From IMG/VR virus record IMGVR_UViG_3300028805_000116: 64,000 nucleotides of DNA; one strand, given 5' to 3'. This document shows, in pieces, positions 1,479 through 48,820 of this stretch (position 1 is the first letter of the stretch; each line of letters opens with the position of its first letter). The translations under genes were made by a program, and so were the position numbers. This stretch comes from a virus. The notes beneath the pieces are model-generated. The model searched no databases, was not told where the DNA came from, and saw nothing but the letters and a program-made list of their open reading frames with translations.

Positions 1479-1519
1479 TATTAAAATTTTTTTTTCTAAA
1501 AATAAAAACTTTTAAAGAA

Positions 1520-14700: not shown

Positions 14701-17700
14701 CCCAAGAATTTTGTCTGATTGAAATGAGCTTATTATTACTATAGCTAGTAAAGAATTAAGCCCACAACAAAAGGCTGTTCTTTCGGAATATATTTCAAAA
14801 TTTAAAGAAGACTTTAGGGAATGAACTAGATGACAGATTACAGTAGAGGCCCAACGGACAGACAATAAGGGGATGTACCCTGGCGAGACTATTAATGTAG
14901 GCTTAAATACCAACATTAACGATATTGATAAAGTATTAAAAGAAAAAATAAATTCTCAAATTAGTGAGCATATTCCTGATGAACAAGTTTTAAAAAATAG
15001 AGCTAAACAAAAGGAGACTTATTGAGAAGGAATATCATTAATAAGGCTATGAGAAAAACAACCATCATTTATGAGACGTTTAGATGATTATGTTTCTCAG
15101 CAAGATGTAGCAGCAACTGATGCTATGAAGGCGCAGATGTTTACAAAAGATAGAACTGTTCAAGAAATAGCTGATGCTTATTGAGTATCTGTTGAGTTTG
15201 TAAAATGAACTAATATGATTGCTTGAGTTGAGGCTTATTGAGCGTATTGAGATGGTATTATCTATTTCACAGATATGGTTAAGGAGAGTACAGCTCCACA
15301 CGAATTGTTCCACGCCATATTTGATATGCACGTAGGTAAAGAACAACACGATAAATTACTCAAACAATGAAGTAAACTCTTCAATGTTAGTGAAGACGAA
15401 ATGGAGGAAATAATGGCAGATAGTTTTGCTCATTGGTTTAATACTTGAGAGTTTATTTACTGAGACGAACTTATAAAGGCTGCTAAAAAGAAGAGACCTA
15501 ATAAAGCAGAAAAATCATTTATAAATAAGGTATTAGAAGTCTTTAAAGACTTAAAGAAATGGTTATGATTAATGGATGACCATAGGGCTGAAGTTAAACA
15601 GATGTTCGACGATATGGTAAATATGAAATATCTACCAGACGCTTGAAAAGCTGTTGAAGCTACGGAAGCTATGATTAAATATAATGATGACTTGGAGAAG
15701 GCTGCTATAAAATACTACTGACAATTACTTTGAGATTACCAAGAAGACTTATCTCCAGAATATATTGAAAGGATTCGCACGAAACTTTCAGAAAAAACTT
15801 GAATTGATTTTAAATCTTTTGACCAAATCCAAGATAAGGCTCTACTATGGCAAAAGGTTGATGAAGCTTTTGTTGTAGATAAATTAGTTTCAGGTAGATA
15901 TGATAAAGAGATTGTAGATGTAGACAATTTAATTAATTGAATAGAGAAACTTACAGATAAAGAGTTAGAGGATGTTATATTCAAAGATTTATGAGTTTTA
16001 AGTAAATGATGAAAGGTTGTAGGTAGAGATACTATTGATGCAATAAGAAACGCATATATAGATTATAAAACTGCCTGAAATGCCGTAGATAGTTTAATAG
16101 CTAAAGGTAAACTTACAGCTTATATACATTGAACTGAGGCGCAGAATGTATCTATGGAAGATATAAGGGCAATATTCCAGAATTGAACATTCGCTCAAAA
16201 ATATAAAGAAATGTTCTTCCCTAATCAAAAACTTACAGCAAAAGAAGAACAAGAGATAATAAAACAAATCAATGATAATATATTTGATACTTTATCAATT
16301 CAGTTTGCTGAAAATTTAGTATCAGCTTGATATGAATTGCCTTTGATAAATATCAAAACATTTATGTATGACTATTTAAATTGAAAGTTAGACTTAAATA
16401 ACAAGTTTGTTGAAGCATTTCTTTATAAAAATAATATTCCATTTTCATCCGATTGATTAAGATGAATTGTAGATAGTTTAATGCCATCAGAATTAAACTT
16501 CAACTATAATTTCTCAAATTATTCATATTGACTTGGGCAAAGGCCTCACGTCTGAGAAAAGGCTGTGTTCAAGGAAGTTGATAATAGGTTTGTTATGGAC
16601 AGTTATTCAGCTTTAGCCTGAATAGAATTAGCTGCTAAGTGATGAATTCCTGAAAATGAGGAAAGGAAAATATTAGAAGAAATCCTTACTAAATATGTAA
16701 ACGAGGTAATTAAATGAGTCAAAGATTGAACGTTAGATTTCAAATGAGCTCAAGAATTAAAACAAGAAGTATGATATGCTTTAGATATGTTTGAACAGGA
16801 TATATTATTGCCTAAATATGGTATATTCTTATCTCCTCAAGAAAAGCAATGACTTATAGGAATGAAATATGACTTGCCTATTTGAGTAAAATGACAAAAC
16901 ATAACTAATGTGACTAAGCAGCTAAACGACATAAAACAGAAGCTCTTAAATAAATATGATAATACGCTATGAAGTATAGTAGAAAATAATGATATTAATG
17001 AAGCAATTCTTAAATGAATTAAAAGTGAAGATGAAAGAATACAAAAGAAAATAGATGCTAGAAGAGATATGTTAGCTGAGAGGTGATGAGTTATCAGAGA
17101 GGTTAATTGACAATATTTGGTATATAATGCTAAACAGGCATTAGAATATGCTTTAGAAGATTTGCCTCCAAGTATTAATTGATTAGAATGACTTAGAGTG
17201 CTATGAAAAGAATGAATTGATAAATTATCTAATCAACAGGCATATGCTTTACTTAGATATATAGAAGCTGCTAAAAGCCTAGATGCCACAGCTTGATATG
17301 CTATAGAGCTTATGTATAAACAAAACCCTATGCTACTTCAATATAATTTCTTTGAAGCATATAGAGTATGAGACCAATGAATTCCTAAAGCATTAGAATG
17401 AAATTCATTAAATTTTGACAAACTATTATCTAGATTAGAAAATACAGCTAAGCTTGATGAAACATCTAAGAAGAATATATTTGAATGAGTTATTAATAAG
17501 TTTAGAAAACAATGATATGTTACTAATGATGACTTAGATGATATTATTGATAAGTGAATAAAAGAAGCATACGCAACATATAAACAGTCGCATATGTCTC
17601 CTAAAGAGATAAAGAAAGCCGTAAATAAAATGAAGAATATTTACAAGAAAGCTTTCGCTCCTTACACTTATTTAAGAGATATTCCTTCTTGAGGAACTGT

Positions 17701-20700
17701 AGATTGAGTAGAATTCAGGAATATAAAATCTAAAGTAAGGGAGGCTATGAAACAGCAATACAATCAAGCTATGGAAGATTTAAAGTCGGTATGAATTACA
17801 AATACGGATTGAATTCAAGATACTATATATCTCACCCTTCCAACTTGACAGAAGATGTCTCTTAGAGATGCTTCTACATTAGATGTTGATAGTTGGAAAA
17901 AATGAATATTTAATGATGAAAGTGTTTATGTAGCTTGAGCTGATGAATTATGAGCTGCTTGAAAGAAGACTGTAGAAGAGCAAAAGGAGTTCAGGAAAAC
18001 TATGGTTAACGAATATGACTCGACATTACAGACTATACTGAACCAATCTCAGTTTATTAGCGAATCAGAAAGAGCATTACAAGGTTCTATTATGAGTGAC
18101 GTAAGGGCTATGTTAAGACAATGAAATCTTACAAACTTAATAGTAGATGCTTTAGATGCCGTAAGTTGACTTAATGAAGAGGCTGCTAGATGAATAAAGG
18201 ATTATCTTATCTGATGGAAGTGAAACGTTTCATTCTGAAAATGGAAGTCTTCTCAGATTATAGAGAGAAATGAATTAGTAAAGAAAGCATACGCACAATA
18301 TTATGCTATGGATTTGTCTAAACTTAATAAGGTAACTCCTTGAACAAAAGCAGAAGACTTAGCTTTAAGATTAGCAAGATACTTTAAAAATTTGGAAAGA
18401 TTATTAGGTAGTGCAGATTGAGTAACTTGATGTACTACAAGTAATCAATTAAATAGAGCGTTCTTCCATATAGGTGAAGTTGTTATGAATGTGGATAGTG
18501 TAAAGTGAATTTTCTGATTATTATCTGCGGTAGAACAAAACCAGATATTAAAGTTGTTTAAGTTTGCTAAGTGAGATTTAAGAAAACAAGCTGAGGTATT
18601 TATTCGTAAAGGTAAAGGTAATTTTACTGAGAGCCTTTGATGATATAGAGACTACGCAGAAGATATTAGTTGAATTACTAGAGATGAGTTCAATGAGATT
18701 TTCTGAACATCATTTAACGAGGACGATTTTAAGAAAATACTTCAATGACTTACAGGTTTCTCATTGGTATGATGAGTTACTAAACCTGTTATGAAAGCAT
18801 TGAATTTCTTGAGCTGAACTAATTTCATATTTAGAGCTGCAATGTCTTACCCTTGACAGCTACTTACAATTCCTTTACAAAGCACAGCATATTTCTTAAA
18901 ACAGATATGATTTGAAAGAGCTTTGGATATTGATAGCTTATCTGATATTGACGAAGTTAGAGTTCATTATTGAATTTTGGATTGAGCATATAACGAAATT
19001 AATTGGTTTAATAAAAAATATAGGGTTAGTCCAGATGATGTTAGAGTAGATAGTTACTATAATAGGTACTGAATCCCTGATGTAGAATGAATTTATAAAA
19101 CTACATCCATAGAGAGCAGTGATGATTACATAAATATGTATGCTAAAATTAATAATCAAACTGCATCAAGTATCAGTTCTACAAATAAATGGATAAGACA
19201 ACTAGACCCATATAAAGATAATGCAAATAACATTATAGACTGATTATTCGCTAGAAACTTTAAAAACATAGCGTTCCAAAAAGCTATAAGACAGAATGAC
19301 TTTATGCAATTTTCTTCAGCAAAAGAGTTCTTAGCCTTTATGGAAGACCCTACGGTATGAGGTTCTGTAAAGCAAAAACTATTAGATAGAGTTGCTGCTT
19401 ATTCAGGTAGAAACTTTAGAAATATCCTTTGATTAGGATTCTGATGAATTGATAGAGCTGTATGATGAAGTGGATTTGGAAACATAATGTACTGACTTAT
19501 GCAGATGTTTAACTTTAGATGAAGTTGGTGACAGAATATATTTAAACAAGCTTGAGCTGCTATTAAGACTTGACTAAAGATAGTGAAAGCAAATCCTTGG
19601 TTAAGTAGAGAATGAAGAGATGCCGTTGGTAGATATATAGCTACACAGCCAGAATTTATGAATTTTGTCTGAGCTTTATTTAATGACTTAAAACGAAGTT
19701 GGAGGTTACAAAGATTCCAAGATAATTGAAGATGGCCAGATAACGAAGATATGTATGTGACTACAGAGTTCTGAGATGTATTTGACGCATATTCAGCTTT
19801 AGATTTTATAGATTACTTAACAGAATCTTTAAGTCTTACTTCACAATTATTCCAGTGAATACAATCATTCTGACCTGCTAGACCAATATTAGAATGAGTA
19901 GAAAGCGCATATAAATCATATATGGACCCTACAATTTATAAAGATACATTCTGAATTTGAGCTTTCTTTAATGCTTTATGAAAGAACTTCTGAAGACAAT
20001 GGAAACCACATAACTGGATTGCTAAAGCATTATGAGCCTTAACTACAGATTGACCTGAGGCATTCTGGACATATGTACAAAATGAATGGTATAAATTATC
20101 ATTTGGTTCTGTAAGGTATATGGTTAATGAAGATAGTAATTCTTATGGATATACTTTCGAAATGACTTGACAACAATGATGAATTCCGTCTATTATAATG
20201 TGAGAATGAAAACAAGGTTCTGATAAAAATTTCTCTTATGAAATAGATAATACAGAGACTTGGGAGACTATAAAACAATTATTTAGTAGCTGAAACTCTT
20301 GGGACGATAGACTTACATATGCCTGAAATCTTTGAAAAGCATTTGTTAACTGAAGTCAGTTCTTTAGTTTATGGAAGAATGCTTGAAAGGCTTGGAATAG
20401 GAATGCTCCAAGTTATTATACAGCAGATGATTTAGCAGATGTTTTACAAAATACTGAAGCTTGATTAGAGTTTTACCAGAAATGAATTGTAACTCCTAAA
20501 ACAAAAGAAGAAGCTGAGATATTCTTTGATACAATATTAGAAAATTCTAAGTTCCGTCCTTGAAGTAGTAATTTTACTAAATCATTAATCAATTATGAGG
20601 ATTATTGACATATGAATGGTAAAGAGAAATGAAATGAAGCTGATGCTGAAATGGAACTTTGGCTAGACCATATGAAACACGTAACTGATGACCATTGAGT

Positions 20701-21952
20701 TATAAGAAAAAATTGAAGCGAGGAGACGGTTGACCCATCTTGGAATAAATTAATTAATGCTGTTAGAAGTTGAGCTTACAATGGAACTTATACAACAAAC
20801 TTGATTTATAACTATGCTAAGACTTGGTTAGACAACCATTCGTCTGACCCTAACTATCAGCTTTATCTTAAACTCTTATGACAATGACAAGCTCATAAAT
20901 TAATTGAGTCTACACAAGACGATATTATAAAAGCTTGGAATGCTGGTAAGAAATGAGTTGATAATAAATGGACGGAGACTGAGTTCAAAAACGCCTGATT
21001 AAGGAGAGATATGTTATTATCTATGTGAAACACTCCTTTACCTTGAGATACTGAAACATTCTTTGATAAACTACAAGTTCTAGATGAGGATAATGCCACA
21101 GTTGCAGCATTACAAATCATTCAGAACCAAGCAAAAGAATGAGATAGAAAAATTATTGATAAGTTCTTTAATGTAAAAGAGAATGATGATTGAACAAAGT
21201 CTGTTACATTAAGAAGACAATATGAAAGTACATTAACTCAGATTTGAGCTGTTGCTAAAGCTATTGATGAATGAAATCTTGAGAGGGCAATATCTGAATC
21301 TTCTATTCTTACAAATATGTATAAGAACCAAGACCCATCAGGAGCTGTAACTGCTACATTGATTGATAGTGTTGTTAATAGAATATACGATACAGATAGT
21401 TTTTCTCCTGAGCAAAAGCAAGAAGCTATTATAGCATTATTCCATCATAATAAAGAATTCATACAAAAGAATCCAGAAAAGCTAAGAGAATTATTATGAG
21501 ATGAATATGATACTTATGCTAATTATATGAATCAGATGCTTTATCAATGGGATTGAGCATTATTGTCTACATTAGAAAGTATGCAGACTAGCTGAAAAGG
21601 TTCATCTTGAACTGCTAAGAAAACTAAAGCTACTTCTAGTGAATTGAAGAAATTAGCCGCCTCTCTAGGTAATGAATGATGAGCTAGAGGAACTTGAACT
21701 GTATGAAGCACAAAATCTTGGGTACCTGTTATTATTAAGTGAGCAGACTTAGTAAAGGAGTTATGAGTAAAATGATATACTCCTAATAAGGTATCATTGT
21801 CTATAAATGCTTATAAGCCTAAGATAGATTTAAGTATAGCTAAAGATATTAACAGAAAAGTTAAATGACCTAAGACACAACAGATATCAAACAAAAAACA
21901 ATTAAGTAAACTTGAAGATAAGGTTACAAAAGCTACTGAAGCAGAAAGTTAG
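11744..21952 (+). CDS. Giant protein, ~3402 aa, polyvalent-protein-like. HExxH zincin-like motif PHELFHAIFDMH at about 15296-15330. H-Y-E-class ADP-ribosyltransferase-like motif VYHGT...GPGMYFSTS near 13850-13950.
   Basis: Single frame from ATG 11744 to TAG 21950-21952. Same frame mod 3 as track ORF 21317-21499 which lies inside it. No TAA/TAG over 10.2 kb, >150 in-frame TGA. Confidence 0.6.
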
Positions 21953-22095
21953 TTAGTACCATAAACAAAAATAAAATAAGACATACAAAATATCTCAGAT
22001 GGAGTATTCTCCATCTTGAGAGTTGTATGTGTCTTAAATTATTTTTCATAACGAAAGTACCTGATATTTCTTTTATATTTTTATGCCAATAAATT

Positions 22096-24461: not shown

Positions 24462-24471
24462 TATGGAAAGA

Positions 24472-24510
24472 AAATCTGGGTTTAGAACTCAGATTTTTCT
24501 TTTTATTTTA
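24472..24510 (+). terminator. Rho-independent terminator (aaatctgggttt-aga-actcagattt + T-run)
   Basis: 10-bp stem with one mismatch followed by ttctttttatttt. Confidence 0.5.
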
Positions 24511-24556
24511 AAAAGTTATAGTAAAAACCTAAAAATTTATAATCTAAATATAGGAA
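24511..24556 (+). promoter_or_regulatory. Conserved promoter-like motif aaaagttatagtaaaaacctaaaaatttataatctaaatatagg, copy 2
   Basis: See 8292-8334. Confidence 0.5.
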
Positions 24557-24723
24557 AGGTTATTGGATACCTTTCTGTGAGTGATGCGTAGACGCATAAT
24601 GGTGATGGTGGTTGAATGGATTAGCTAGCTATGTGGGAAGTATCTGAGTTGGTAGGCAGAGAAAGTCTATATAGACAGCATAGCTAGTATATCTATTCGC
24701 ATTTATTTCATTTATTAAAAATA
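24557..24723 (+). other. Long, relatively GC-rich, structured 5' leader. Inverted repeats atgcgtagacgcat and gctagctatg/catagctagt. Contains a 14-codon mini-ORF MRRRIMVMVVEWIS.
   Basis: 167 nt between the promoter motif and the scaffold-like gene start, with nested inverted repeats. Confidence 0.3.
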
Positions 24724-25632: not shown

Positions 25633-25722
25633 TCTAGTTGTTAATTATTTATTTAATTAACTTTGAGCCACGCTTGGAATAGCGTGAGCTTTTTTCGTTT
25701 TATTCTTAATTGGTAAATTTAA

Positions 25723-27228: not shown

Positions 27229-27242
27229 TCTAGTCTTTCAAA

Positions 27243-27282
27243 AATGGGAGGGCTTTAATTAGCCTTCCCTTTTCTTTAATTA
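27243..27282 (+). terminator. Rho-independent terminator (gggagggc-tttaatta-gccttccc + T-run)
   Basis: 8-bp GC-rich stem with one mismatch followed by ttttctttaatt. Confidence 0.55.
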
Positions 27283-27298
27283 AAATAAACAAAGCTGT

Positions 27299-32307: not shown

Positions 32308-32334
32308 TTTTATTTCCTAATCTAAATACACAAT

Positions 32335-34080
32335 ATGCCAAGAGCAAGATTAGTATTCGATGGGGACTGAGTGTATACAGAGAAGGAAGCACGCATCCAT
32401 AAACTAACCCAGGAAACAGAAAATAAAATAGATAATATCCCTGGGGTAGTTGACGATGTGAACTCTACTTCTACGACAGACGCTTTGTCTGCGAATATGG
32501 GTAAGAGATTACAGGACCAGATTAACCAATTAACTTGATTAAATAAATTTTTATCTACTTGGGATTGTACGACTGGGCTTCCTGTTACAGACCCATCTGC
32601 AACTCCATTTACATATGCAAGTGGTAACTATTATTTAGTTGCTACTGTCGCTTGAGAATGAGGAACTAATTATAAACCTCATTGAAGTACATTTACTCCT
32701 TGAGTAGCTTCTACAGCAGTAGAAACTAATGAAGTAAATGTAAATGATATGTATATCTTTGATTGAAGTCAATGGATATTACAAGTAAATAAAGTAAAAG
32801 AAATAATTGTTGATGATGGACTTTCTCCTGATTCAACTAACGCTGTAGAAAATAGAGCTATCTATAATGCTCTAACTACTAAGCAAGATAAGATATTAGA
32901 TTTGGCTGATATTAGAGCAGGTGCCGCTTTAGGTATGACATCTATTCAGCCTTGAGATAATATAACAGAATTGACAAATAACGTAGGTTATCAAACTGCT
33001 GGAGATGTCGCTTCTGCCATAAATGACGCTATTGAATGAAGTAAATATGTTTGACCTACGGCACCCGACCCAGCTACAGAGTGAATGCTTTGGTATGATA
33101 CAACAAACGATGTACTAAAAAGTTACGACTGAACTAACTGGAATGAGGTTGGTAGTGATGCTGCTGATATTAACACAAAAACATTCTACCTATCAAATAC
33201 AGGAGATACAACTAATGCAAAAGCTGCATTGGATTGGTACTTGGCAGGGAAAAATCCTATTATTATATATAATAATACTGCATATATAGTAACTCCAAAT
33301 GCATATTCACAAACTGCTCTATGCTTTTGTGCAGCAAGTGTATATGCAGGTCGTGATAACTCTAAAACTACGAATTGAGTATTAACACTTGCAATAATCT
33401 ATAGTTGAGATACAGTTACTTCAATTCAAGCTGGTACAGCTGGTATAAGAGTACTTGAAACTGACAGAGATTATTCAACTCCATATACTCCTGAATATGA
33501 TTGAAGCCCAACTACAAAAAAATATGTAGACGATAAAGTTAAGAATGCTATAACTTCTTGAACTACAGCCCCTTCTAATCCAGTAGTTTGACAACTTTGG
33601 TATGATACAACTAATCATATCTTAAAAATATATAATTGAACAAGTTGGGTGCCTGTAGATACAGACACAACTTATACAGCAGGTACTAATGTACAGATAT
33701 CTAATCAAAATGTGATTTCTTCTACAGATACAACTTATACAGCTTGAACTTGATTATCTTTAAGTTGAACTGAATTTAATGTAAATACTAATGATATCGC
33801 AACGGTATCTTATGTTGATTGAAAGATATATATTTGATGAAGTGCTCCTGGAGTATGGTCAGAATGAATGCTTTGGTTTGATACATCAGTTAGCTCATTA
33901 AAGGTTTATTTATGATTTATGCCTTGACGAAAAGTAGTAGCTACAAAAGATGATGTAAATAATATAATAAGTGATGCTGCATTCTCTGCTTCTTGGGATT
34001 GAGACACAACACACGCACCTAGTAAGAATGCAATATATGATGTACTAGGAGACGTAGAAACTTTACTTGCTAACCTATAA
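32335..34080 (+). CDS. Tail fibre protein, ~581 aa, with three Phage_fiber_2-like repeats (GMLWYDTTNDVLKSYDGTNW, QLWYDTTNHILKIYNGTSW, GMLWFDTSVSSLKVY).
   Basis: ATG 32335 to TAA 34078-34080. Repeated WYDT...Y.G..W motif. Confidence 0.55.
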
Positions 34081-34085
34081 GAGAA

Positions 34086-34775
34086 ATGACAATAGCGAGT
34101 GAAATAACAAGATTACAATGAGCTAAGGCTGATATAAAAAGCTCTATAGAATGAAAGTGAGTAAGCGTTCCTGCTTCTGCTAAATTAGATACATATTCGA
34201 CATATATAGACCAAATAGAGAGATGAGACCCTAGATGAAAGTTTGTAGTAGGTACTATTCTTAGGACTTGAGTGATTACAAATATTTCAAGTAGTGATGC
34301 TGTATATTTCTTTTGATGGGAGATGTCTTATGTAGATAATGATGTAATGATACTATGTCGCCCTTGGATTTATGATAATTATTCTTCTAGTTGAAGTTCT
34401 GATTATACTGTCAACTTAGATTGTTTTGCTTTAGATTGAACTACATTAGATTTTAATAGGTGAGGATGAAGCCATTGAAATTTTCTGATTAATTGAAGTT
34501 TAAGTGCCAAATCTTATAAATGCTATAGAGAATGAGATATAGTCCATTTTCAATTAAATTATGAGTTCTATCGAAGCGAATATAGCGATACATATTATGT
34601 GATGGATGCGATGTATAACATAAGCACAAAGGCTTGGAGTTCAAACGAATGGACGGTAGATAGAGATTTCAGGTTAGATAATTCTTGAAATATGAATTTA
34701 TATAATGCCTCTTGGGAATGATGTACTTCTTGAAAGTGTACTCCTATTATAAAACGGACACCAGTTCTTAGTTAA
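34086..34775 (+). CDS. Tail-associated hypothetical protein, 229 aa
   Basis: ATG 34086 to TAA 34773-34775. Confidence 0.4.
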
Positions 34776-34804
34776 AATAATTTAATTAATAATTTTAAAA
34801 TATT

Positions 34805-37800
34805 ATGGCAAAAGCACGTCAACAGTATTTTGCAGATGAAGTAACTTTACAGAAAGAGAACAGGGATTTCGCTATACAACCTGAACTCGTTGAGAAACTA
34901 GAAAGTATAGAAGCTTGAGCTCAAGTTAATGTAATCGAAACAGTTAAAGTGAACTGAGAGGCATTAACTCCAGATGAGAATAAAGCTGTTGATGTGAGTG
35001 TCCCTTTAGTAGAGGACACTCTTTATTCAACAGACCCAGATAAGGCTCTATCTGCAAATCAATGAAAAGTATTATATGAATATATACAAAATTTAGCCTC
35101 AAGAGGTAGATATCTTTCTAACTGGAATACAGTTACTTGATTGCCTACTACTAATCCAGTTGATAATCCATATCAATATCGTGCTTGAGACTATTATGTA
35201 GTAAGTAATGTAGCTGCCGAAGGCGGTACTAACTATAGACCTAATGGTAGTACTTATTCTTGGGGAGTAGCTTCAACTACAGTAGAAACTGAAACTGTAA
35301 AAGTTTGAGATTATTATACATATGATTGACAGCATTGGCTTTTACTTGTAAATACGGCTAGAGAAATTGCTATAGATAGTAGTTTATCTACAACAAGTAC
35401 AAACCCTGTAGAGAATAAAGTAATTACAAATGCTCTAAATACTAAACAGAATAATATCACAGATTTAGAAACTATACGTAGTTGAGCTGCTTTATGAGCA
35501 ACAGCATTACAACCCTGAGCTAGTCTATCAGAATTATCTTGAACTTCTGATAACATAACTCAATGAACTACAAATCTATTTATGACTACAGCTGAGAGAA
35601 GCAAATTATCTAATCAAAGCTGAGTTAATACTTGAGATGAAACTCAAACAACAATAAAAAATAAATTATGACAAGCGTCTGCTTCAACAGATGGTTATCT
35701 TACTTCAACAGATTGGAATACGTTTAATAATAAACAATGAGCCATTTCCGATTTAGAAACAATTAGAAGTAATGCCTCTGCTTGAAAGAATGCAAGTGAT
35801 ACAATAGCAACTTATGGAGATGTAGTTACACACGATGCTGATGAATTTGCCACAGCTTCACAATGAGCTAAGGCAGATACAGCATTACAAAATGGAGACA
35901 ATGTATCAGAGCTAGTTAATGATGCTTGATATATAACAGATGCTTATCACGACGATACAAAACAAGACAAATTAATAGCTTGAGCTAATATTCAAATTGC
36001 TGCAGATTGAAAAACAATTTCTTCTACAGATACAACATATGTAGCTTGAGACTTTGACATAAAAGACCTAGCTGATAGTACTTGACTTAGAACAGAATGG
36101 AGCTGAAAGCAAGATGAATTAATAGCTTGAGCTAATATCCAAATCGCCGCAGACTGAAAGACTATTAGTGCTACAGATACTAAATATACAGCTTGACCTG
36201 GTATTAGTATTTCAAATAATAATGTTATTTCTAATACACAGACAAGTGCTGAATGGTGAAACATCCAAGGAACACTAAGTAATCAAACAGACTTACAATT
36301 AGCTTTAGATGATAAACAAGATACTCTTACAGCTTGAGCCAATATACAAATAGCCCAAGACGGGACAATCTCTGCTACAGATACTAAATATACAGCCTGA
36401 ACTTGAATTTCAATTGATGCTAATAATGTAATAAGCAACACACAAACATCAGCTGAATGGTGAAACATAACTTGAACTCTTTCAGACCAAACAGACTTGC
36501 AAACTGCTTTGGATGCTAAGCAAGATGATTTAATTGCTTGAGCTAATATCCAAATCGCAGCAGATTGAAAAACAATCTCTGCAACAGATACTCAATATGT
36601 CGCTTCAGACTTTGATATTAAAGACTTAGCAGACTCTACAGGAAAGAGAGCTTCTTGGGATGCTAAACAGAATGCTATTTCAGACTTAGCTACGATTAGA
36701 AGTAATGCATCTACAGCTATTCAACCTAATGATAATGTTAGTGAATTAACAAATGATGCTGGTTACATTACAAGTGCAGATATTCCTACATTAGATACAG
36801 CTATGTCTGATAGTTCTACAAATGGAGTGCAGAATAAAGTAATTAAATCCTATGTAGATACTCAAGTACAAGAAGCTACAAGTGGTGCGGTGAGCGATAC
36901 AGCATATTGAACAAGTTGGAATTGAATTACAGGTATAGCTCCTTCTAAGAATGCTGTCTATGATAAGATTTCTGCTATGGATACAACTATAGCTTGAAAG
37001 CAAGCCACGATTAGTGATTTATCCACTATTAGAGCAGGAGCTTGAAAATGAGCTACAGCTGTACAGCCTTGAGACAATGTATCAACCCTTACAAATGATG
37101 CAGGCTTTATCACTAAAGCTGTAAGCGACTTAACAAATTATTATACTAAGAATGAAACATATACAAAATCTGAAGTAGCTGATTATGTAGCAAACTTTGC
37201 TTGATTTAAAGTAGTTGCACAGTTACCTACTACAGATATTAAAACAACAATAATTTATTTGCTTTGACCTGTTGGAACTTGAGCAGATAAATATGAAGAA
37301 TATATTTACTCAAATAATGCTTGGGTAAAGATATGAGAGACTTCTGTGGATTTAACAAATTACTTTAATACATCTACAGATAACTCAGATAGTATTACTC
37401 AAGGTTCTACTAATCTATTTCTAACAAGCGCAGAAAGAACTAAGCTTTCTAATACAAGTGGAACTAACACAGGAGATGAAACTAAAACAACTATCCAATC
37501 TAAGTTAGGTGCTGCGACTTCTAGTAATGATTGATATTTAAGTAGTGCTGATTGGTCGAAGTTTAATAGTAAGGCTGACACAACAATTATAAATGACACG
37601 GCTTATGCTTCTAGTTGGAATGCAGATACAACTCACGCCCCTACAAAGAATGCTGTGTATGATAAGCTGAATGCTATGGATACGACTATATCAGGTAAAG
37701 CTGATGCTACAGATGTAAATGTAAAATATTTTAAATTGTCCTCTACATCTGATACAACTCACGCACAGGAAGCTGTAGATTGGTTTTTAGCTTGAAAAAT

Positions 37801-39538
37801 TCCTGTTCTTCAAGTTGGAGATAATGATTTCTATTATTTAGATAGAAACGTTCCATTAGAATCAATTAATAATCCAACATTAACATTTTCAAATCAAAAT
37901 TATGAAAGCTATCAATATGTAATAATAGATGTATCTAATTGAACAGTAGATAGTATACGTACAGCAATTCAATCATTTGTGGCAACATCCTGAAATCAAA
38001 CAGTTAATTGACAAAAAACATTTGGGACTTCACCAATAGTTCCTTCTAAAACTTCTGATGCCACTAATACTTGAACAGCAATAGCAACAGAAGCACAGGT
38101 ATATAAGAAACAAGATAAACTAGCTACACAAACAGCTTATACATCTAAGGGTACTGCTAGCAAAGTACCTCAGATTACAACAAATAGTCTGTGACAGGTA
38201 ACTTGAATTACTGAGGTTGATATATCCTATCCTAGTCAAGTCTCAGATGTGGCTTATGCTTCTAGCTGGAACTGAGTTACAGGAACAGCTCCTTCAAAGA
38301 ATGCTGTCTACGATAAAATCTCTGCTATGGATACAACCATAGCTTGAAAACAAAATACTCTTTCAACACAAACTGCATATACTTCTAAATGAACTTCTAC
38401 TAAAGTCCCTCAGATAACAACTAACACTTTATGACAAGTAACTTGAATTACAGAAGTTGATATACAAGCTTGAGAAACTTACAACGCTTGAGAATGAATA
38501 GAAATCTGAAATGACTACTCAGCTATGCAATGACCTGCACCAGATGGTTTTCACGTGCCACTTAATACAGAATGGCAAGCTGTTTATGATGTATGGACAG
38601 CTTTAGGTGGATGAAGTTCAGACTGAACTAATTTCTGAATAGCATTAAAGTTGCCTTTCGCTGGTTACCGTGACGCCTCGTCTGCTGGTGTTTACAGTCA
38701 GGGTACCGACGGGAACTATTGGTCTTCTTCTCGTAGCGATGCGAATCGTGCCTACTACCTGTACTTATATTCGAATGCTCCTGACCCCCAGAGTTTCGAC
38801 TACCGTGCGTACGGTTTCTCTGTACGTTGTTTCAAGAACTCCCCAACTGTACCTACATCTTCTTGGACAAAACTATATTGAACAAGTATAGAAAGTTGAT
38901 GAATATTCTGGAGTAGTACAGATTGACTTATATCATTATCAAGCGACTGACAGACTTGGATAACAATAGCTGATAAGAACTTATGAGCCACAACTGTATG
39001 GAACAGCTGAGACACATTAAGTGAAGCTAATTGTGGTAAATATTTTCAACGATGAAATAATTATGGTTTCCCACGGACTTGAAGTGTAACAACTTCTTGA
39101 ACTCAAGTAGATGCTAGTAGTTATTGACCTTGAAATTATTACTCAAGTGATACATTCATAAAATATAATTGAAGATGGGACACAACAGATAATTGAAATC
39201 TTTGGTGATGAGTAACGTGAGTAGTAAGTAACGCTATCACAAACACAGGAGTACTTAGTGTGAATGGAGAGACTGGAGCAGTAAATCTGACTATACCAAC
39301 GATTAGTACAATAACAGTAACTCTGACTGCTGCTTGATGGTCTTCTAATGAGCAAACTGTTTCTGCTATAGGAGTTACTGCAAGCAACACAGTTATAGTT
39401 TCTCCTGCACCAAGTGATATAGCTGATTATGCTGACTGTGGTGTTTATTGTTCTGCTCAAGGTAGTGGAACTTTAACATTTGGATGTGATACAGCACCAG
39501 ATGGAGATATAGTAGTGAATGTACTAATAATGAGTTAA
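34805..39538 (+). CDS. Large tail fibre / receptor-binding protein, ~1577 aa. Many internal repeats (ANIQIAADGKTISATDTKYTAG..., SWNADTTHAPTKNAVYDK...). C-terminal FISUMP-like domain (GYRDASSAGVYSQGTDGNYWSSS...GFSVRCFKN).
   Basis: ATG 34805. Same frame as track ORF 38651-38881. TAA 39536-39538. Confidence 0.6.
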
Positions 39539-39550
39539 AAAAGTCTGATT

Positions 39551-39621
39551 TCTCCTATCGTTTAAGTCTAGGAACGCTACCAGAAAGGGTAGAAATGAGG
39601 GGTAAGAACTCTCTAGGAGAA
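39551..39621 (+). ncRNA. tRNA-like cloverleaf element, copy 1. 7-bp acceptor tctccta/taggaga, D-arm, anticodon-arm ctacc/ggtag with 6-nt loop, T-arm gaggg/ctctc. Flanked by direct repeats agtctgattt.
   Basis: Manual folding. Homologous to the copy at 41644-41714 with compensatory base changes in two stems. Confidence 0.4.
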
Positions 39622-39657
39622 AAGACTAGTCTGATTTATTTCTTATGTTTAATAATT

Positions 39658-40347
39658 ATGGCTATATTTAATACAGTTTATGGAGGTACAGGATGAGGAT
39701 GGAAACCTAGTGCATCTGTAACTGCACGATACAAATTTGCATTAGATACGAAAGATTATTCTTGAAATAATAGGAATGCAACAGAGCAAACAAGTACACT
39801 TTCTTATGCGATGGATGGTAACTTAGTCTATGCAGTATTTAATAACACTATGCTTTCTGCGAGTAATTGATTAAGTAGTGCTAACTATACAGCATCTGCT
39901 TGGATAAAATCTAGTGAGGTAAAGACTTGATATGTGCTAATTACTTGATGAAGTAACCACAATATGCAACCGTTATTAGTTGGTATATCTAGCGAAACAA
40001 ATAACAAATATATCTTCAAATCTCAATATTGGATATGAAGCCCTAGTTATTGTCCACCTATTTGAACTGCACCAGATGAATTAGTAATACCGCTTAATCA
40101 ACGAAAGCTAATTACATCAGTAAGAAAAGATGGGGTTTGTTATCTTTATGTAAATTGAAGTTTATGATATTCAGGTTCTATCACAACAGAATTAAGAACA
40201 GAAGAATGGCATATATGAAACCAATGGTCTAACTCTACACTTAATTTTAATGGTTGAGTATCAAACTTAATAATAGACCAATCTCCACGAACAGCAGATG
40301 AAATCCTAGCATATTATAACCAAACGAAATCTAACTACTGACTTTAA
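39658..40347 (+). CDS. LamG/ConA-like jelly-roll protein, 229 aa. Tail fibre/receptor-binding accessory candidate. Ends ...AYYNQTKSNYGL.
   Basis: ATG 39658 to TAA 40345-40347. Confidence 0.45.
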
Positions 40348-40377
40348 TCAGACTTTTTAAATTCTTTAAAGACAGCG

Positions 40378-41634
40378 ATGCCAATAATAAATATGGTATA
40401 TAAGAAGAAAAAGGGATGGAAACCTTGAGCTAATACACTTTTATATTTACCATTAAATTCAACTGATACATATACAGATAAGAGTTGAAATAATATATCT
40501 ACTACAAATAGCAATGTAACATTTGGAGATTATTATTGAGTTGAGTGCGGAATTTTTAATTGAAGTAATACTCATATACAAGTTACTCCATTTGCTATAC
40601 CAGATACAGTAACATTATTATGCCGAACTCGTTGACCATCAATATCATCATCTTACGATGCTAAGATATTTGATGCTAGAAGTAACCCAACTATAACTAC
40701 TTGAAAAATACCAACAACACGAAGTGACTGAAAAAATGCTTATTTTGCTTGGTTGAATAATTGAGGAATAAATACTGTACAAGGAATTAATGACCAATGG
40801 TTTTTGTTCGCTGTTACTATATGATGATGAACTGTAGATATATATGCTATATGAGATAATCTTAATATACATTTATCAGATAGTTGAACTATAAATGCGT
40901 GAACTCCATCACAGATAAATATCGGAAATGAATATAATAATGGTGCTAGTAGATATTATAGTTGATGAATAAGCGAGCTTATATTAGAAAATAAAAAATG
41001 GACAGCAGATGAAGTAACAGCATATTATAACCAAACAAAATCAAACTACTGACGGCCTAAAAGGTTACCATCAGCTTATCAAGAAGTAGAGTATATACAG
41101 AGTAGCTGAACTCAATATTTTAGTGTGTTAAATTCATTCAAGACAAGCTATAAAACTGTAATAGATTTCCAAATGGTAACCACTTGATGAGATTATATCC
41201 CATTATGAATGCTTAAGGCTGATGCTAGTTATAAATATTGAATAAATGCTTATAGCTGATATTTCAAAGTAATAAGTTGAAGGTCTTGGGCAAATACTAA
41301 ATCAGAAGATAAAAATAGACATACTTTTATAATTGATAAAAGTACAGTAACAGTAGACTGAACAAATTATAGTATTAATTATGTAGATGTTACATTTGAT
41401 TTTTGAATTTGAGTATTTGCATATCATAGTAATGGGGGCACACTATGGCAATTTCTTTCAAGTAATAAATTATACAAACTAGATATATATGATGAGGGTG
41501 GAACACAGATTTTTAATGGAGTGCCTTGTTATAGAAAAAGCGATAGTGTAATATGAATGTACGATGTAATAAATAAAGTATTTTATACAAATGAATGAAC
41601 TTGAACATTTACTAAATGACCAGATGTAAACTAA
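40378..41634 (+). CDS. Paralogous LamG-like protein, ~418 aa. Contains an internal ...AYYNQTKSNYGRPK junction.
   Basis: ATG 40378 to TAA 41632-41634. Shares a sequence block with the preceding gene. Confidence 0.45.
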
Positions 41635-41643
41635 TCAGATTTA

Positions 41644-41714
41644 TCTCCCATCGTTTAAGTCTAGGAACACCATCAGTAAGGATGGAAATGAAAGGTAAGG
41701 TCTTTCTGGGAGAT
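41644..41714 (+). ncRNA. tRNA-like cloverleaf element, copy 2. Acceptor tctccca/tgggaga, anticodon-arm ccatc/gatgg, T-arm gaaag/ctttc. Flanked by direct repeats aatcagattta.
   Basis: See 39551-39621. Covariation preserves the pairing. Confidence 0.4.
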
Positions 41715-41921
41715 TTAATCAGATTTATTTCTTTTCTTTAACCAATGACCGTAACTCTTACTTTTACCCTCTTTATAGTTCTGTGTATCCTAGTGGGGTA
41801 TGAGATATTTAGAAAATAATAAAAAGCTGAATGACTAAACTATTTGAGAGAAAAGCAACGCTACTAGATACAAGTCGAACTATATATTAACTCAGCCTTT
41901 TACCCCTTCCTTTAACCTAAT

Positions 41922-42056
41922 ATGCTAAAATTACTTCTCCTTCTTATATTCTTAGTCCTATTTGTGATAGGAATCATTAAGATAGATTTATTTCTATTTA
42001 GAGTAATTGTCGCTATAAGCATTATAGCTTTAGTGGCAATATTAAATTATCTTTAA
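41922..42056 (+). CDS. Small hydrophobic membrane peptide, 44 aa
   Basis: ATG 41922 to TAA 42054-42056. Almost entirely L/I/V/F. Confidence 0.35.
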   Translation: MLKLLLLLIFLVLFVIGIIKIDLFLFRVIVAISIIALVAILNYL

Positions 42057-42075
42057 TCTTTACATTATATAAACA

Positions 42076-42384
42076 ATGACAAATATTTTCATTTGGCTTA
42101 TTGCTATTTCTGTAGTAATCACTAGCATAGTTTCTTTTGCTAAGCCAGCTTATAAGAAATTCGCAGGAAAATTTGCAGTAAGTATTAACATTCTTTTAAG
42201 TTTTATCCTTTGAGAAGTAGCTTCTTTCTCAGTAGCTCCTCTATTAGGATTGGAATTCAATTCAGGACTTCTTATTCTTTTAGGGTTAGCTCTTTGAACT
42301 GGGTCTAACTTATGGTATGACCTATGGGAAATTGTTAAATGATTAGGAGTTAAACTTAAGAAGGGGATTGAAGAAGTGAAATAA
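42076..42384 (+). CDS. Membrane protein, 102 aa, two predicted TM helices. Holin/lysis-associated candidate.
   Basis: ATG 42076 to TAA 42382-42384. Confidence 0.4.
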
Positions 42385-42385
42385 G

Positions 42386-42430
42386 AAAAAGTTATAACAA
42401 AACCCTTAAAATATATAATCTAAATATAGA
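42386..42430 (+). promoter_or_regulatory. Conserved promoter-like motif aaaaagttataacaaaacccttaaaatatataatctaaatatag, copy 3. Followed by a 9-bp stem hairpin at 42445-42481.
   Basis: See 8292-8334. Confidence 0.5.
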
Positions 42431-42509
42431 GAAACTATTTCTCTGTAGCTCCTACTTTATTCCCCCGATAAGGTAGGAGCTTTAATTTTATTAAATAATT
42501 TTAATTGCT

Positions 42510-43001
42510 ATGAGAGCACTTAAAACTTTTATGAGAAATCGCAAAGCAGAAATGCTAGGTTGCGGAGAATGTAAGTGTAGAACTTTACAATGCCGACGTT
42601 ACGCAGATGAATTCTGTAATTGTGGTGATGCAACAATCTGAGATATGAGAAGTTATGCAGAGAACCGATTTGCGACTTCAGAATTAATGAATAATGTAAC
42701 AGACCCAGATACAGTTCAAGCTAATGCTGATACAATTATAGAATGAGCTTGAGAAGAATTGCGTCCTTTCTATAATGCCGTTAAAGCAGGTAATACATTT
42801 GAAAAATATGTTACTGATGAAGGATTAACTGTAGATGAGACTGGAACTTGTGATGATGAATTAGCTAATACAGATGCTGCGTTCATATTATATGTATCTG
42901 CTATGGGAGCTATTGATTGTAAATATCTATGATTGAATAGTGGTAATTTAATCAACGCTACAGAAATAGCTGCTTATTTAGATAGCATTAATGCAGATTA
43001 A
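42510..43001 (+). CDS. Cys-rich hypothetical protein, 163 aa (CGECKCRTLQCRRYADEFCNCGD)
   Basis: ATG 42510 to TAA 42999-43001. Confidence 0.45.
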
Positions 43002-43023
43002 TTTACCCCTTAAATAAATTATA

Positions 43024-43164
43024 ATGAAATTTAAATATAAACCAGGGAAAGAAGATTACTTCGATTACCTTAAAAAATTAATATGAGTTAAGAAAAAGAA
43101 ACCTTCCAAAAAGGAAAAGGAAGAAAAGGTAGACTACCTCTCTTTAGATGAATTAAATAAATAG
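43024..43164 (+). CDS. Small Lys-rich protein, 46 aa
   Basis: ATG 43024 to TAG 43162-43164. Confidence 0.3.
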
Positions 43165-43166
43165 CA

Positions 43167-44291
43167 ATGCCAACACAAGAAGAATTAAATGCTGCACAGG
43201 TTGAATTAGATATAGCTAATGATAACTATGCGCAGCTAGCTGATAGATATAATAAATATCAGCAATTATTCCAGACTTATGCTAGTTCTAGTCCAGAAAT
43301 CCAGAATAGAGCTGCTGCTGCTATGTGAAGAGCTTTGGAAGATTACTATCAAACTCAGGAAAAGATGAAGGCAGCTGAAGAAAGAATAGCCCAGGCCCAA
43401 AATGTAATGAATAATTATAATGAAATTATAGCTAATCAGCCTGCGCAACAAACAACTACAAGAAGAGTAGTTAGACAAAATCCTAATTGAACAATAACAG
43501 AAGAAGTAATAGCGGAACCAATACAAAATAATTCACGAGCTGCTATTGGAACTACAACAGATTGAAGAACTATTACTACTGACCCTAATAAAGTAATATA
43601 TGCTGCCGATTGAGCAGTAGTAGTAAAAAGTAGCTGAATAGCAGATAAATTTAATAATACCACTATTTGATATACTGCTGATTGAAGACCAATCAAAATT
43701 CAAAAAGAAATAGACTCGATACCTGTAGAGACGACTGTAGCTTGATATACTTCTAATTGAAGCCCAATCTATTGACCAGCTCCACAAGGAACTACTTGAA
43801 CACAATGAACTACGATAGTAGCACAGCCTTTATTAAATGGAGGACCAATTACATCTAACTGAACTCCGACTATTGGCTGACCTTGACAGAGCGGTACCCA
43901 AAGCTGATGAAGGATTTCTACAACTACAACAAATAACTCTTTCTGATGAGCAGGGTGGACATATAACGCTGACGGGTCAATGACTTCACCAAATTGACAA
44001 ACTAAGGTTTATGCTGACTGAAGTATTTCTTTTTGACCAAATTCAACAACATCTACACCTCGTAGAAGGATAAATATTACTCCATCTACCAATCCTATAG
44101 ACAGAATTAAATGAACATATAATATGGGAGTTTGAGCAAATAATACCTTATATAATGTAGCTAAAGCGAGAGTTGGATATAATAATTTAACAGATTGGAA
44201 TTGAATTGGCTGAATAAGAGATAACCTTCAATGATGAGTTAATATGATTAAAGGCGCTGCTTGAGCTGTAAAATGAGCTGCGCAATTTAAT
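43167..44291 (+). CDS. Hypothetical protein, ~374 aa. Coiled-coil N-terminus, Gly/Thr-rich C-terminal half.
   Basis: ATG 43167 to TAA 44289-44291. Confidence 0.45.
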
Positions 44292-46331: not shown

Positions 46332-46383
46332 AAATCGCAGGTACTTTCGTAGTCAAAAATAAAATAAGACACGTTAATATATT

Positions 46384-46420
46384 AAGGTGGATAATTGTTC
46401 CACCTTTAATTTATTTCATA
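46384..46420 (+). terminator. Rho-independent terminator (aaggtgga-taattgt-tccacctt + T-run). Part of a ~50-bp element repeated at 48733-48785.
   Basis: 8-bp perfect stem followed by taatttatttc. Confidence 0.5.
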
Positions 46421-46431
46421 ATTTATACATT

Positions 46432-48498: not shown

Positions 48499-48716
48499 TA
48501 AGGTTTTAATGATTTGTGGTGAGACTTGTATAAAATGTAAATTTCTAAAGCCACATCTTGAAAAGTTCTGTTTAGATAATAATATCCCTTTTGAAGAAAA
48601 AGATGTGAATATGGCTACGCCTGAAGAAATTGAATGAGCTACTTCATTGCCAGTAGTATGGTTCGACGACAAACAAATAGATTATGACGAAGCTCTATCT
48701 ATTATTTCTAAATAGA
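48491..48716 (+). CDS. NrdH/glutaredoxin-like redoxin, 74 aa. CxxC = CIKC. Also LPVV motif.
   Basis: ATG 48491 overlaps the previous stop (ATGCCTAG). Track ORF 48422-48637 extends through TGA to TAG 48714-48716. Confidence 0.5.
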
Positions 48717-48820
48717 AACCATAGGTAGTACCGTTATCAAAAATAAAATAAGACACATAAAAATATTGAGGTGGACAATTATTCATCTCAGATAAAATTT
48801 TACATTAAAATAGATAACCT

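What the first reader, a model, noticed from the sequence alone, without database searches (positions are those of the whole stretch)
39551..41714. Two homologous tRNA-like cloverleaf elements with compensatory stem changes, each flanked by short direct repeats and each closing a receptor-binding-type gene
Elements at 39551-39621 and 41644-41714 fold into acceptor (7 bp), D, anticodon and T arms. Between the copies the anticodon stem changes ctacc/ggtag to ccatc/gatgg and the T stem changes gaggg/ctctc to gaaag/ctttc, with the acceptor tctccta/taggaga changing to tctccca/tgggaga. Pairing is preserved each time, which argues for selection on RNA structure. The anticodon loop is only 6 nt and contains no UCA, UUA or CUA, so they are not obvious suppressor tRNAs. 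Both copies are bracketed by a(g/a)tc(t/a)gattt direct repeats. They could be degenerate tRNAs, att-like sites, processing signals or structured terminators of a duplicated fibre cassette.
Basis: seen in the sequence. Interest (0 to 1): 0.75.

Follow-up and report, generated by a model that had tools for sequence, protein, structure and literature searches.

The report
tRNA-shaped RNA punctuating phage fibre operon
Two 71-base stretches between tail-fibre genes of a phage that reads TGA as glycine fold into a conserved tRNA-shaped RNA that cannot decode; it matches no described RNA family and most plausibly marks where the long late messenger RNA is cut or stabilised.

Summary
Elements A (39551-39621) and B (41644-41714) fold as exact tRNA-geometry cloverleaves on the + strand. 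Six sequence variants from ten contigs keep 97.6% of pairs. Eight of 21 pairs carry double compensatory changes, and every G.U pair lies on the + strand. Of about 128,000 71-nt windows in this sequence, only A, B, the reverse complement of B and one weak AU-rich site give such a fold.

They are not tRNAs. ARAGORN and all Rfam models are silent, the "anticodon" loop is an A.G-closed GNRA tetraloop, and the T loop lacks T-psi-C.

The flanking "direct repeats" are two copies of a linker (TAATCAGAYTTTAT...) that separates all fibre/LamG cassettes in these phages. Filled junctions equal empty junctions plus 84 nt. The element always starts 7-12 nt after a stop codon and ends 30-39 nt before the next start. 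Both copies sit inside one ~10-kb late unit with no internal terminator.

Best reading (inferred, about 0.4): a tRNA-mimic punctuation or stability signal, like plant-mitochondrial t-elements, carried as a non-coding cassette.

The family is narrow and undescribed. The host is a code-25 bacterium (TGA = Gly).

The parts
39551..39621 (+). Element A: 71-nt tRNA-shaped RNA. Acceptor 7 bp, D arm 4-5 bp with an 8-nt loop, 5-bp arm capped by AGAAAG, 4-nt variable region, T arm 5 bp with loop GUAAGAA, discriminator A.
   Evidence: The same 71 nt occur in L001, L002/L089, L090, L094 and L101.
41644..41714 (+). Element B: second copy, differing from A at 15 of 71 positions; its stem differences from A all preserve pairing.
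   Evidence: The closest relative is in L095.
39542..39551 (+). 5' linker copy at A (AGTCTGATTT). It follows the fibre stop codon at 39536-39538 and overlaps the first base of the element.
39628..39657 (+). 3' linker copy at A (AGTCTGATTTATTTCTTATGTTTAATAATT), which is the 5' leader of the next gene. Sequence conservation among relatives ends about 20 nt after the element.
41632..41644 (+). 5' linker copy at B (TAATCAGATTTAT). It includes the stop codon of LamG2.
41716..41744 (+). 3' linker copy at B (TAATCAGATTTATTTCTTTTCTTTAACCA), leader of a 24-aa membrane ORF. It is collinear with the single linker of the empty junctions in L094 and L001.
40345..40377 (+). Empty junction between LamG1 and LamG2: one linker (TAATCAGACTTTTTAAATTC...) and no element.
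34805..39538 (+). Tail-fibre gene (1577 aa under code 25) that ends 12 nt before A. Its last ~170 nt are conserved together with A across otherwise divergent fibre genes.
39658..40347 (+). LamG1 cassette gene (229 aa, Laminin_G_3).
40378..41634 (+). LamG2 cassette gene (418 aa: a LamG-like half plus a C-terminal domain that is shuffled among relatives).
41745..41819 (+). Conserved 24-aa hydrophobic ORF (MTVTLTFTLFIVLCILVGYEIFRK), starting 30 nt after B.
   Evidence: Read directly. The same sequence follows the junction in L094, L001 and L090.
32318..32328 (+). Late-promoter-like motif TAATCTAAATA that opens the ~10-kb unit containing A and B. The next exact copy is at 42416-42426.
   Evidence: Within 38500-43200 no terminator-like site lies between A and 42447 (one minimal 5-bp hairpin at 38802 inside the fibre gene).

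Best explanation
A and B are copies of a previously undescribed, tRNA-shaped, non-decoding RNA. It is transcribed as part of the long late mRNA that encodes the tail fibre and its interchangeable receptor-binding (LamG-type) cassettes.

Shown: the RNA keeps exact tRNA geometry (7-bp acceptor stacked on a 5-bp T stem, 2/1/4/0-nt junction linkers) and tRNA core identities (U8, G10-C25, U11-A24, A14, R15/Y48, R26/A44). Its 'anticodon' loop is an A.G-closed GNRA tetraloop, and its T loop is GUAAGAA rather than T-psi-C.

Inferred mechanism: the element mimics a pre-tRNA for the host's tRNA end-processing enzymes. RNase P would cut at its 5' side and RNase Z or other nucleases at its 3' side. This would cut the polycistronic transcript 7-12 nt after the upstream stop codon and 30-39 nt before the next start codon. 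The fibre message, the cassette message and the lysis-gene message would then acquire separate ends and separate stabilities, as with tRNA punctuation and the t-elements of plant mitochondria.

At the DNA level the element behaves as an 84-nt non-coding cassette. It begins with the same linker as the gene cassettes, so it is gained, lost and moved by recombination at that linker.
For: Structure and selection:
- Both copies fold as a cloverleaf MFE.
- 8 of 21 pairs covary and 97.6% of cells are paired across six variants.
- An independent RNAalifold prediction gives the same structure, and the fold is robust in its mRNA context.
- The shape is essentially unique among about 128,000 windows.
- G.U pairs (U13.G22; G50.U60 in A; U6.G65 in L092; U51.G59 in L088/L091) occur only on the + (sense) strand, and the minus strand folds worse.
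- There are no indels in the 71 nt in any variant.

Placement:
- The element always starts 7-12 nt after a stop codon and ends 30-39 nt before the next ATG, on the coding strand, in all ten contigs.
- A and B lie within one promoter-to-promoter unit (32318-42416). Within 38500-43200 no terminator-like site lies between A and 42447 (one minimal 5-bp hairpin at 38802 inside the fibre gene), and canonical terminators exist elsewhere in the phage.

Cassette behaviour: a filled junction equals an empty junction plus 84 nt. The element follows four unrelated C-termini.

Precedent: non-canonical tRNA-like t-elements direct RNase P/Z cleavage of plant mitochondrial mRNAs (PMC1920247).
Against: - No RNA-end data exist, so cleavage is pure inference.
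- The T loop lacks the GGTTCRANYCC motif that plant t-elements retain, and the D loop lacks G18G19. The elbow that bacterial RNase P and RNase Z contact is therefore non-canonical.
- There is no 3' CCA.
- The strong conservation of the loop sequences (GNAAG in two loops, the D loop) would fit a dedicated protein partner at least as well.
- The conserved spacing to stop and start codons follows automatically from insertion at a fixed point in the linker, so it is not independent evidence.
- Only six variants from one narrow clade are known.
- D-arm invariance is partly an ascertainment effect of the 18-mer used to find relatives.
Confidence: 0.4

Rival explanations
1. Cis-regulatory protein-binding RNA. 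A phage or host protein binds the conserved loops (two GNAAG loops and the D loop). This would control translation or translational coupling of the downstream cassette, or insulate it from ribosomes terminating on the fibre gene.
For: Loop sequences are invariant while the stems covary. The element sits 7-12 nt after the stop codon, where a terminating ribosome would abut it, and it lengthens the stop-to-start distance from ~30 nt at empty junctions to ~118 nt.
Against: No candidate RNA-binding protein was identified among 27 proteins scanned. This reading does not explain why the scaffold should copy tRNA dimensions so exactly. The next start codon lies outside the structure and is unpaired in the consensus fold.
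Confidence: 0.2
2. Trans-acting tRNA mimic. After excision, the 71-nt RNA accumulates and titrates or misleads a host factor that recognises tRNA shape, for example a tRNA-targeting defence nuclease, a modification enzyme or the CCA-adding enzyme.
For: The geometry and core identities are full tRNA-like, with a non-decoding GNRA-capped arm. There are two copies per genome in a highly expressed late unit.
Against: There is no evidence of excision or accumulation. The element is absent from most related LamG-cassette phages, so it is dispensable. No known nuclease target loop is mimicked.
Confidence: 0.1
3. DNA-level element only: a recombination hotspot or miniature mobile insertion with a target-site-like duplication. 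It would shuffle fibre cassettes, in the manner of the PeSL cassettes of T4-like phages, and have no RNA function.
For: Linker copies lie on both sides, and each pair is matched within a site but differs between sites (AGTCTGATTT; TAATCAGATTTAT; A[T/C]CAGC; TGGA(A)TTT). Filled and empty sites are otherwise collinear. Mosaic breakpoints lie ~170 nt upstream and ~20 nt downstream of A. Different cassettes follow the identical element in different phages. PeSL precedent: PMC2839356, PMC4122927.
Against: Recombination alone does not select for compensatory stem changes, for G.U pairs restricted to the sense strand, or for exact tRNA dimensions. The duplication length is variable (about 7-16 nt). 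No transposase or recombinase was found. There are only one or two copies per genome. This reading is compatible with the main explanation as the way the element spreads, but not as its function.
Confidence: 0.12
4. Intrinsic or factor-dependent transcription terminator or attenuator that closes the fibre gene.
For: Its position is immediately after stop codons, and T-rich sequence (ATTTATTTCTT) begins ~16 nt downstream.
Against: The terminator scan finds nothing at either element. The U-rich tract is not adjacent to the closing stem. The phage's real terminators are simple GC hairpins followed by a U-run (25633-25722, 27229-27298, 50240-). Downstream genes lack the late-promoter motif and so depend on read-through.
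Confidence: 0.05
5. Decaying tRNA gene, or attP-type mimic of a host tRNA.
For: The cloverleaf has tRNA core identities. A related phage carries real tRNAs (L092).
Against: ARAGORN and the Rfam tRNA model give nothing, even at E<=10 on 91 nt. Covariation and invariant non-tRNA loops show present-day selection. The D-arm 18-mer is absent from GTDB species genomes. No integrase was found.
Confidence: 0.03

Closest known systems
Plant-mitochondrial t-elements and tRNA punctuation of organellar transcripts (Forner et al. 2007, PMC1920247)
   Same: A non-canonical cloverleaf embedded in an mRNA precursor directly after or before coding regions. It is proposed to recruit RNase P/RNase Z to create mRNA ends, and it does not decode.
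   Different: t-elements keep the canonical T arm (GGTTCRANYCC) and have experimentally mapped ends. This element has a GUAAGAA T loop, a GNRA-capped 'anticodon' arm and no mapped ends. It occurs in a phage of a code-25 bacterium.
mascRNA/MALAT1-type tRNA-like 3'-end modules (from general knowledge; Rfam models searched, no hit)
   Same: A tRNA-like fold at the end of a long transcript, with a non-functional anticodon arm. Cutting it off sets the upstream RNA's 3' end.
   Different: The system is eukaryotic and nuclear. There is no sequence or covariance-model similarity.
PeSL promoter/stem-loop cassettes of T4-like phages (PMC2839356, PMC4122927)
   Same: A short conserved intergenic module that recurs between variable genes and marks the points where modules are exchanged by homologous recombination.
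   Different: PeSLs are a promoter plus a simple terminator hairpin, dozens per genome, in early hyperplastic regions. Here the recurrent unit is a ~30-nt linker, and the structured part is a tRNA-shaped RNA present once or twice, in the late fibre operon.
Canonical tRNA (Rfam RF00005)
   Same: Stem lengths, junction lengths and total length match. U8, A14, G10-C25, U11-A24, R15/Y48 and R26/A44 are present.
   Different: The central loop is 6 nt and GNRA-type. There is no T-psi-C and no G18G19. No detector or model recognises it.

Membership tests
tRNA (RF00005 / ARAGORN definition) | Recognised by tRNA detectors or the covariance model | tested here: not met
   ARAGORN finds 0 genes in the window and in L001, L002, L088-L091 and L093-L095; in L092 it calls only two canonical tRNAs ~4 kb away, none at the element. 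Rfam gives no hit at gathering score, nor at E<=10 on 2.7 kb or on 91 nt.
tRNA (RF00005 / ARAGORN definition) | 7-nt anticodon loop with U33 | tested here: not met
   The loop is 6 nt, AGNAAG, in all six variants. N varies A/U/C, as expected of a GNRA tetraloop closed by A.G.
tRNA (RF00005 / ARAGORN definition) | T loop T54-psi55-C56-R57-A58 and D-loop G18G19 | tested here: not met
   The T loop is GUAAGAA (GUAAGGU in B) and the D loop is AAGUCUAG. Real tRNAs in the related phage L092 have GGTTCGAATCC.
tRNA (RF00005 / ARAGORN definition) | Cloverleaf with 7/4/5/5-bp stems and 2/1/4-5/0-nt junctions | tested here: met
t-element / tRNA-punctuation processing signal | tRNA-like fold with an acceptor-T coaxial stack embedded in an mRNA precursor next to coding regions | tested here: met
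   The stack is 7+5 bp. The element lies 7-12 nt after stop codons, on the sense strand, inside one transcription unit.
t-element / tRNA-punctuation processing signal | Conserved T arm GGTTCRANYCC (used to find t-elements, PMC1920247) | tested here: not met
   The motif is absent.
t-element / tRNA-punctuation processing signal | RNA termini coincide with the element borders; cleavage by RNase P/RNase Z | not testable with these tools
   No transcript data or enzymology are available.
Intrinsic terminator | GC-rich hairpin immediately followed by a U-run | tested here: not met
   No terminator-like site is reported at either element. After the closing stem A has AAAAGACT and B has TTTAATCA.
MITE / small transposable insertion | Terminal inverted repeats, fixed-length target-site duplication, many copies, cognate transposase | tested here: inconclusive
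   The flanking duplication is present, but its length varies from about 7 to 16 nt and it extends into the element. The only inverted repeat is the 7-bp acceptor stem. There are 1-2 copies per genome. No transposase was found in 27 proteins scanned.
Phage attP / integron attC recombination site | Identity to a host tRNA gene segment, or RYYYAAC...GTTRRRY cores in a long imperfect hairpin, together with an integrase | tested here: not met
   The D-arm 18-mer is absent from GTDB species genomes except for one Nitrospirota match that the element model scores only weakly (18.5 bits). There are no attC cores, and the structure is a cloverleaf, not a hairpin. No integrase was found. Only the 18-mer was searched, so this is a weak negative.
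PeSL-like shuffling cassette | Conserved intergenic motif recurring at the boundaries of swapped modules | tested here: met
   The linker TAATCAGAYTT... occurs at empty and filled junctions in the window, L001, L088-L092, L094 and L109/L110. Mosaic breakpoints flank A.
PeSL-like shuffling cassette | Composite promoter plus terminator stem-loop | tested here: not met
   There is no late-promoter motif and no terminator at the junctions.

The most novel reading that the evidence does not exclude
A new class of phage non-coding RNA: a tRNA-shaped, GNRA-capped mimic carried as a movable non-coding cassette in the receptor-binding-protein operon of phages of code-25 (Absconditabacteria/Gracilibacteria-type) bacteria. 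It would be excised by tRNA-processing enzymes and then act in trans on host machinery that recognises tRNA shape, for example as a decoy for tRNA-cleaving defence nucleases or tRNA-modifying enzymes.
Probability: 0.1. Interest if true: 0.85.

Novelty: new variant of a known kind. Interest (0 to 1): 0.6.

Why it matters
If the element is cut by tRNA-processing enzymes, it would be (to my knowledge) a first case of t-element-style punctuation in a phage operon. It would show how a phage with a ~10-kb late transcript sets different amounts of fibre, receptor-binding cassettes and lysis proteins without internal promoters or terminators.

It also gives a compact, covariation-supported RNA motif specific to phages of uncultured code-25 bacteria, where almost nothing is known about RNA processing. 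The linker system around it is a clear example of how receptor-binding modules are swapped.

The motif is small enough (71 nt) to test directly in vitro.

Tried and rejected
- Suppressor or unusual tRNA: rejected (loop anatomy).
- Any Rfam family, including ribozymes, Y-RNA-like and viral tRNA-like structures: no match at E<=10.
- Programmed translational bypass, with the flanking repeats as take-off and landing sites. This is attractive at A, where AGT before the stop and AGT in the 3' repeat are in frame with LamG1. It was rejected because frames and codons do not match at B or L088 and empty junctions already have stop and start codons.
- -1 frameshift or read-through into the open frame that crosses the element. 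Rejected because the register relative to the upstream gene differs between variants (offset 12 or 15 nt versus 10 or 13 nt), and read-through in the A/B register meets TAA in the D arm.
- Small peptide starting at the invariant GAAATG. The peptides are not conserved beyond what the stems impose.
- Extended closing stem formed by the flanks: not conserved.
- Targets complementary to the loops elsewhere in the window: none enriched.
- More family members. Five of six IMG/VR pattern scans, including two aimed at the 3' half or the middle of the element, returned only the two known contigs plus chance hits. The sixth, a 15-mer scan, gave 87 stretches, none a new member. INPHARED gave no match. 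Ten look-ups of LamG and fibre homologues added only the window's own phage (L101). The weak model hits in L009/L048 and similar loci share only the searched 15-mer inside a coding region.
Full report
**What the window is.** The 64-kb window (32% GC) has coherent genes only if TGA is read as a sense codon. TGA makes up 4.7% of codons, more than all GGN codons together. It also encodes the Walker-A glycines of the terminase (G-PR-G-G-G-K-S, read as TGA CCA AGG TGA TGA GGT AAA TCA) and of a DnaB-like helicase. So TGA means glycine (genetic code 25), which points to a phage of an Absconditabacteria/Gracilibacteria-type host. A 110.6-kb ENA contig (L101) is the same phage.

Under code 25 the region of interest reads, all on the + strand:
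- a late-promoter-like motif at 32318
- fibre genes at 32335-34080 and 34805-39538
- element A
- LamG1 (39658-40347)
- LamG2 (40378-41634)
- element B
- small membrane ORFs
- the next promoter-like motif at 42416

**The observation.**
- Each copy's minimum-free-energy structure on the + strand is a cloverleaf. The reverse complements fold worse.
- The two copies differ at 15 of 71 positions. Their stem differences all preserve pairing.
- Pattern scans found the element in two IMG/VR contigs and seven metagenome contigs. Together these give six distinct sequences.
- On these six sequences, 8 of 21 pairs change on both sides and 97.6% of cells are paired, against 41-56% for slid partners. No shuffle reaches the covariation score.
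- The T stem is completely replaced (GAGGG/CTCTC, GAAAG/CTTTC, GGTGT/GCACC) with no change in length.
- RNAalifold on sequences with 25-40 nt of flank returns the same cloverleaf and leaves the flanks single-stranded.
- The fold dominates the ensemble with 50-150 nt of native flank.
- As a control, I folded every 71-nt window of both strands (about 128,000). Only A, B, the reverse complement of B and one weak AU-rich site gave a cloverleaf MFE with a closing stem of at least 6 bp.
- G.U pairs occur at four different positions, always on the + strand. This points to sense-strand RNA.

**What it is not.**
- ARAGORN finds no tRNA here or at the element in any of its relatives.
- Rfam reports nothing at gathering thresholds. 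It gives no tRNA or tRNA-like family even at E<=10 when only 91 nt are searched.
- The central loop is AGNAAG with N = A, U or C. From established knowledge of RNA motifs, this is a GNRA tetraloop (GAAA/GUAA/GCAA) closed by an A.G pair, a capping loop rather than an anticodon loop.
- The T loop, GUAAGAA, also begins with GNRA and lacks T-psi-C. The D loop lacks G18G19.
- The tRNA core is nevertheless intact: U8, A14, G10-C25, U11-A24, A15/U48, R26/A44, junctions of 2/1/4/0 nt, and a 7+5-bp acceptor-T stack.
- True tRNAs in a related phage are canonical.

The element is therefore tRNA-shaped but is not a tRNA.

**The flanking repeats and the genomic logic.**
- In every contig the element starts 7-12 nt after the stop codon of a fibre or LamG-type gene. 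It ends 30-39 nt before the next start codon, on the coding strand.
- It follows four unrelated C-termini (...VVNVLIMS, ...GPDVN, ...SNYGL, ...AYFTI(E)).
- The same C-termini occur in relatives without the element.
- Junctions without the element carry a single linker, TAATCAGA(T/C)TT(T)AT..., running from the stop codon to the next ATG. Examples are window 40345-40377 and sites in L001, L088, L089, L090, L092, L094 and L109/L110.
- Aligning filled junctions (window B, L095) with empty ones (L094, L001) shows that filled equals empty plus 84 nt. The linker start is present on both sides.
- The repeat pairs match within a site but differ between sites.
- The similarity appears to run on into the acceptor and D-stem 5' strands (TAATCAGATTTATCTCCCATCGTTTAAG versus TAATCAGATTTATTTCTTATC-TTTAAC). 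This is suggestive, not proven.

The 'direct repeats' are thus the common inter-cassette linker, duplicated. The element behaves as a non-coding cassette exchanged at that linker.

Around A, four otherwise divergent fibre genes converge to near identity over their last ~170 nt, the element and ~20 nt beyond it. Different cassettes follow after that. This matches the module-boundary behaviour described for PeSL motifs in T4-like phages (PMC2839356, PMC4122927).

**Transcriptional context.** An exact late-promoter-like motif (TAATCTAAATA within TATAATCTAAATATAGGAAA) occurs at 8320, 24540, 32318 and 42416. Ordinary hairpin-plus-U terminators follow the capsid-region genes and the last + strand gene. 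None lies at or between A and B. A and B are therefore internal to one ~10-kb late transcript, and they bracket the two LamG cassettes.

**Mechanism.**
- Shown: a conserved sense-strand RNA with tRNA dimensions and a non-decoding arm, placed between cistrons.
- Inferred: it works as a pre-tRNA mimic. RNase P and RNase Z recognise the acceptor-T stack and elbow rather than the anticodon. Cutting would separate fibre, cassette and lysis-gene messages and give them different ends and lifetimes.
- Closest documented analogue: the t-elements of plant mitochondria, non-canonical cloverleaves whose borders coincide with mRNA ends (PMC1920247).
- Weaknesses: the T and D loops are non-canonical, there is no CCA, there are no RNA-end data, and the invariant loops might instead serve a dedicated protein.

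I put about 0.4 on this reading. About 0.2 goes to a protein-binding or translational role, about 0.1 to a trans-acting mimic, about 0.12 to a purely DNA-level recombination or mobile role, and small values to the terminator and pseudo-tRNA/att readings.

**Distribution and novelty.**
- The family is narrow: the window's phage and eight other contigs.
- It is absent from other phages with homologous LamG cassettes or fibre tips (L102-L115) and from 50,697 GenBank phage records.
- Its D-arm 18-mer is absent from 185,579 species genomes, apart from one match that the element model scores only weakly (18.5 bits).
- Full-text searches found no description of such an element.
- The kind (a tRNA-like structure inside an mRNA) is known. 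This sequence family, its GNRA-capped design and its setting in a code-25 phage fibre operon are new.

Noticed in passing
window, whole; e.g. 6140-8293 and 2179-2958: TGA encodes glycine (code 25). The Walker-A glycines of the terminase and the DnaB-like helicase are TGA codons. TGA makes up 4.7% of all codons, more than GGN combined (2.8%), while TGG stays at 1.2%.
   Followed up: yes
window 8320, 24540, 32318, 42416 (+): Exact recurrences of TAATCTAAATA within TATAATCTAAATATAG(G/A)(A/G)AA, always intergenic and upstream of + strand late genes. This is probably the phage's late promoter.
   Followed up: partly
window 21953-22095, 46332-46431, 48716-48820 (+): A three-member intergenic motif, CAAAAATAAAATAAGACA(Y), followed about 10-15 nt later by a hairpin. 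It is a second conserved regulatory or RNA element, unrelated to the cloverleaf.
   Followed up: no
window 24462-24723 and 42385-42509: Long leaders after the promoter-like motif that contain strong hairpins (e.g. 42447-42481, 15 bp). These may be structured 5' UTRs of the scaffold-like gene and of the 42510 gene.
   Followed up: no
window 1108-1511: A 404-nt, extremely AT-rich non-coding stretch with tandem AAAAAATAATCTATCT-type repeats. It may be an origin or iteron region.
   Followed up: no
window 41745-41819, 41922-42056, 42076-42384: A run of small hydrophobic ORFs (24, 44 and 102 aa) directly after element B. The 24-aa ORF is conserved in L001, L090 and L094. This may be a lysis or holin module.
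   Followed up: partly
window 40378-41634 compared with L089 9410-10030 and L088 667-1287: The C-terminal half of LamG2 (LPSAYQEVEYIQ...GPDVN) occurs in relatives as a separate gene fused to different N-terminal docking peptides (MAIFNTVYGG, MGVYIG). This indicates domain-level shuffling of receptor-binding modules.
   Followed up: partly
L092 11916-12082 (-): A related phage carries two canonical tRNAs (Met-CAT and Ser-TGA) about 4 kb downstream of its cloverleaf element. The clade can therefore hold real tRNA genes alongside the mimic.
   Followed up: partly
window 11744-21952 (+): A single 3402-aa ORF with 210 TGA codons, adjacent to a 1022-aa ORF. These are giant virion-associated proteins of unknown function.
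   Followed up: no
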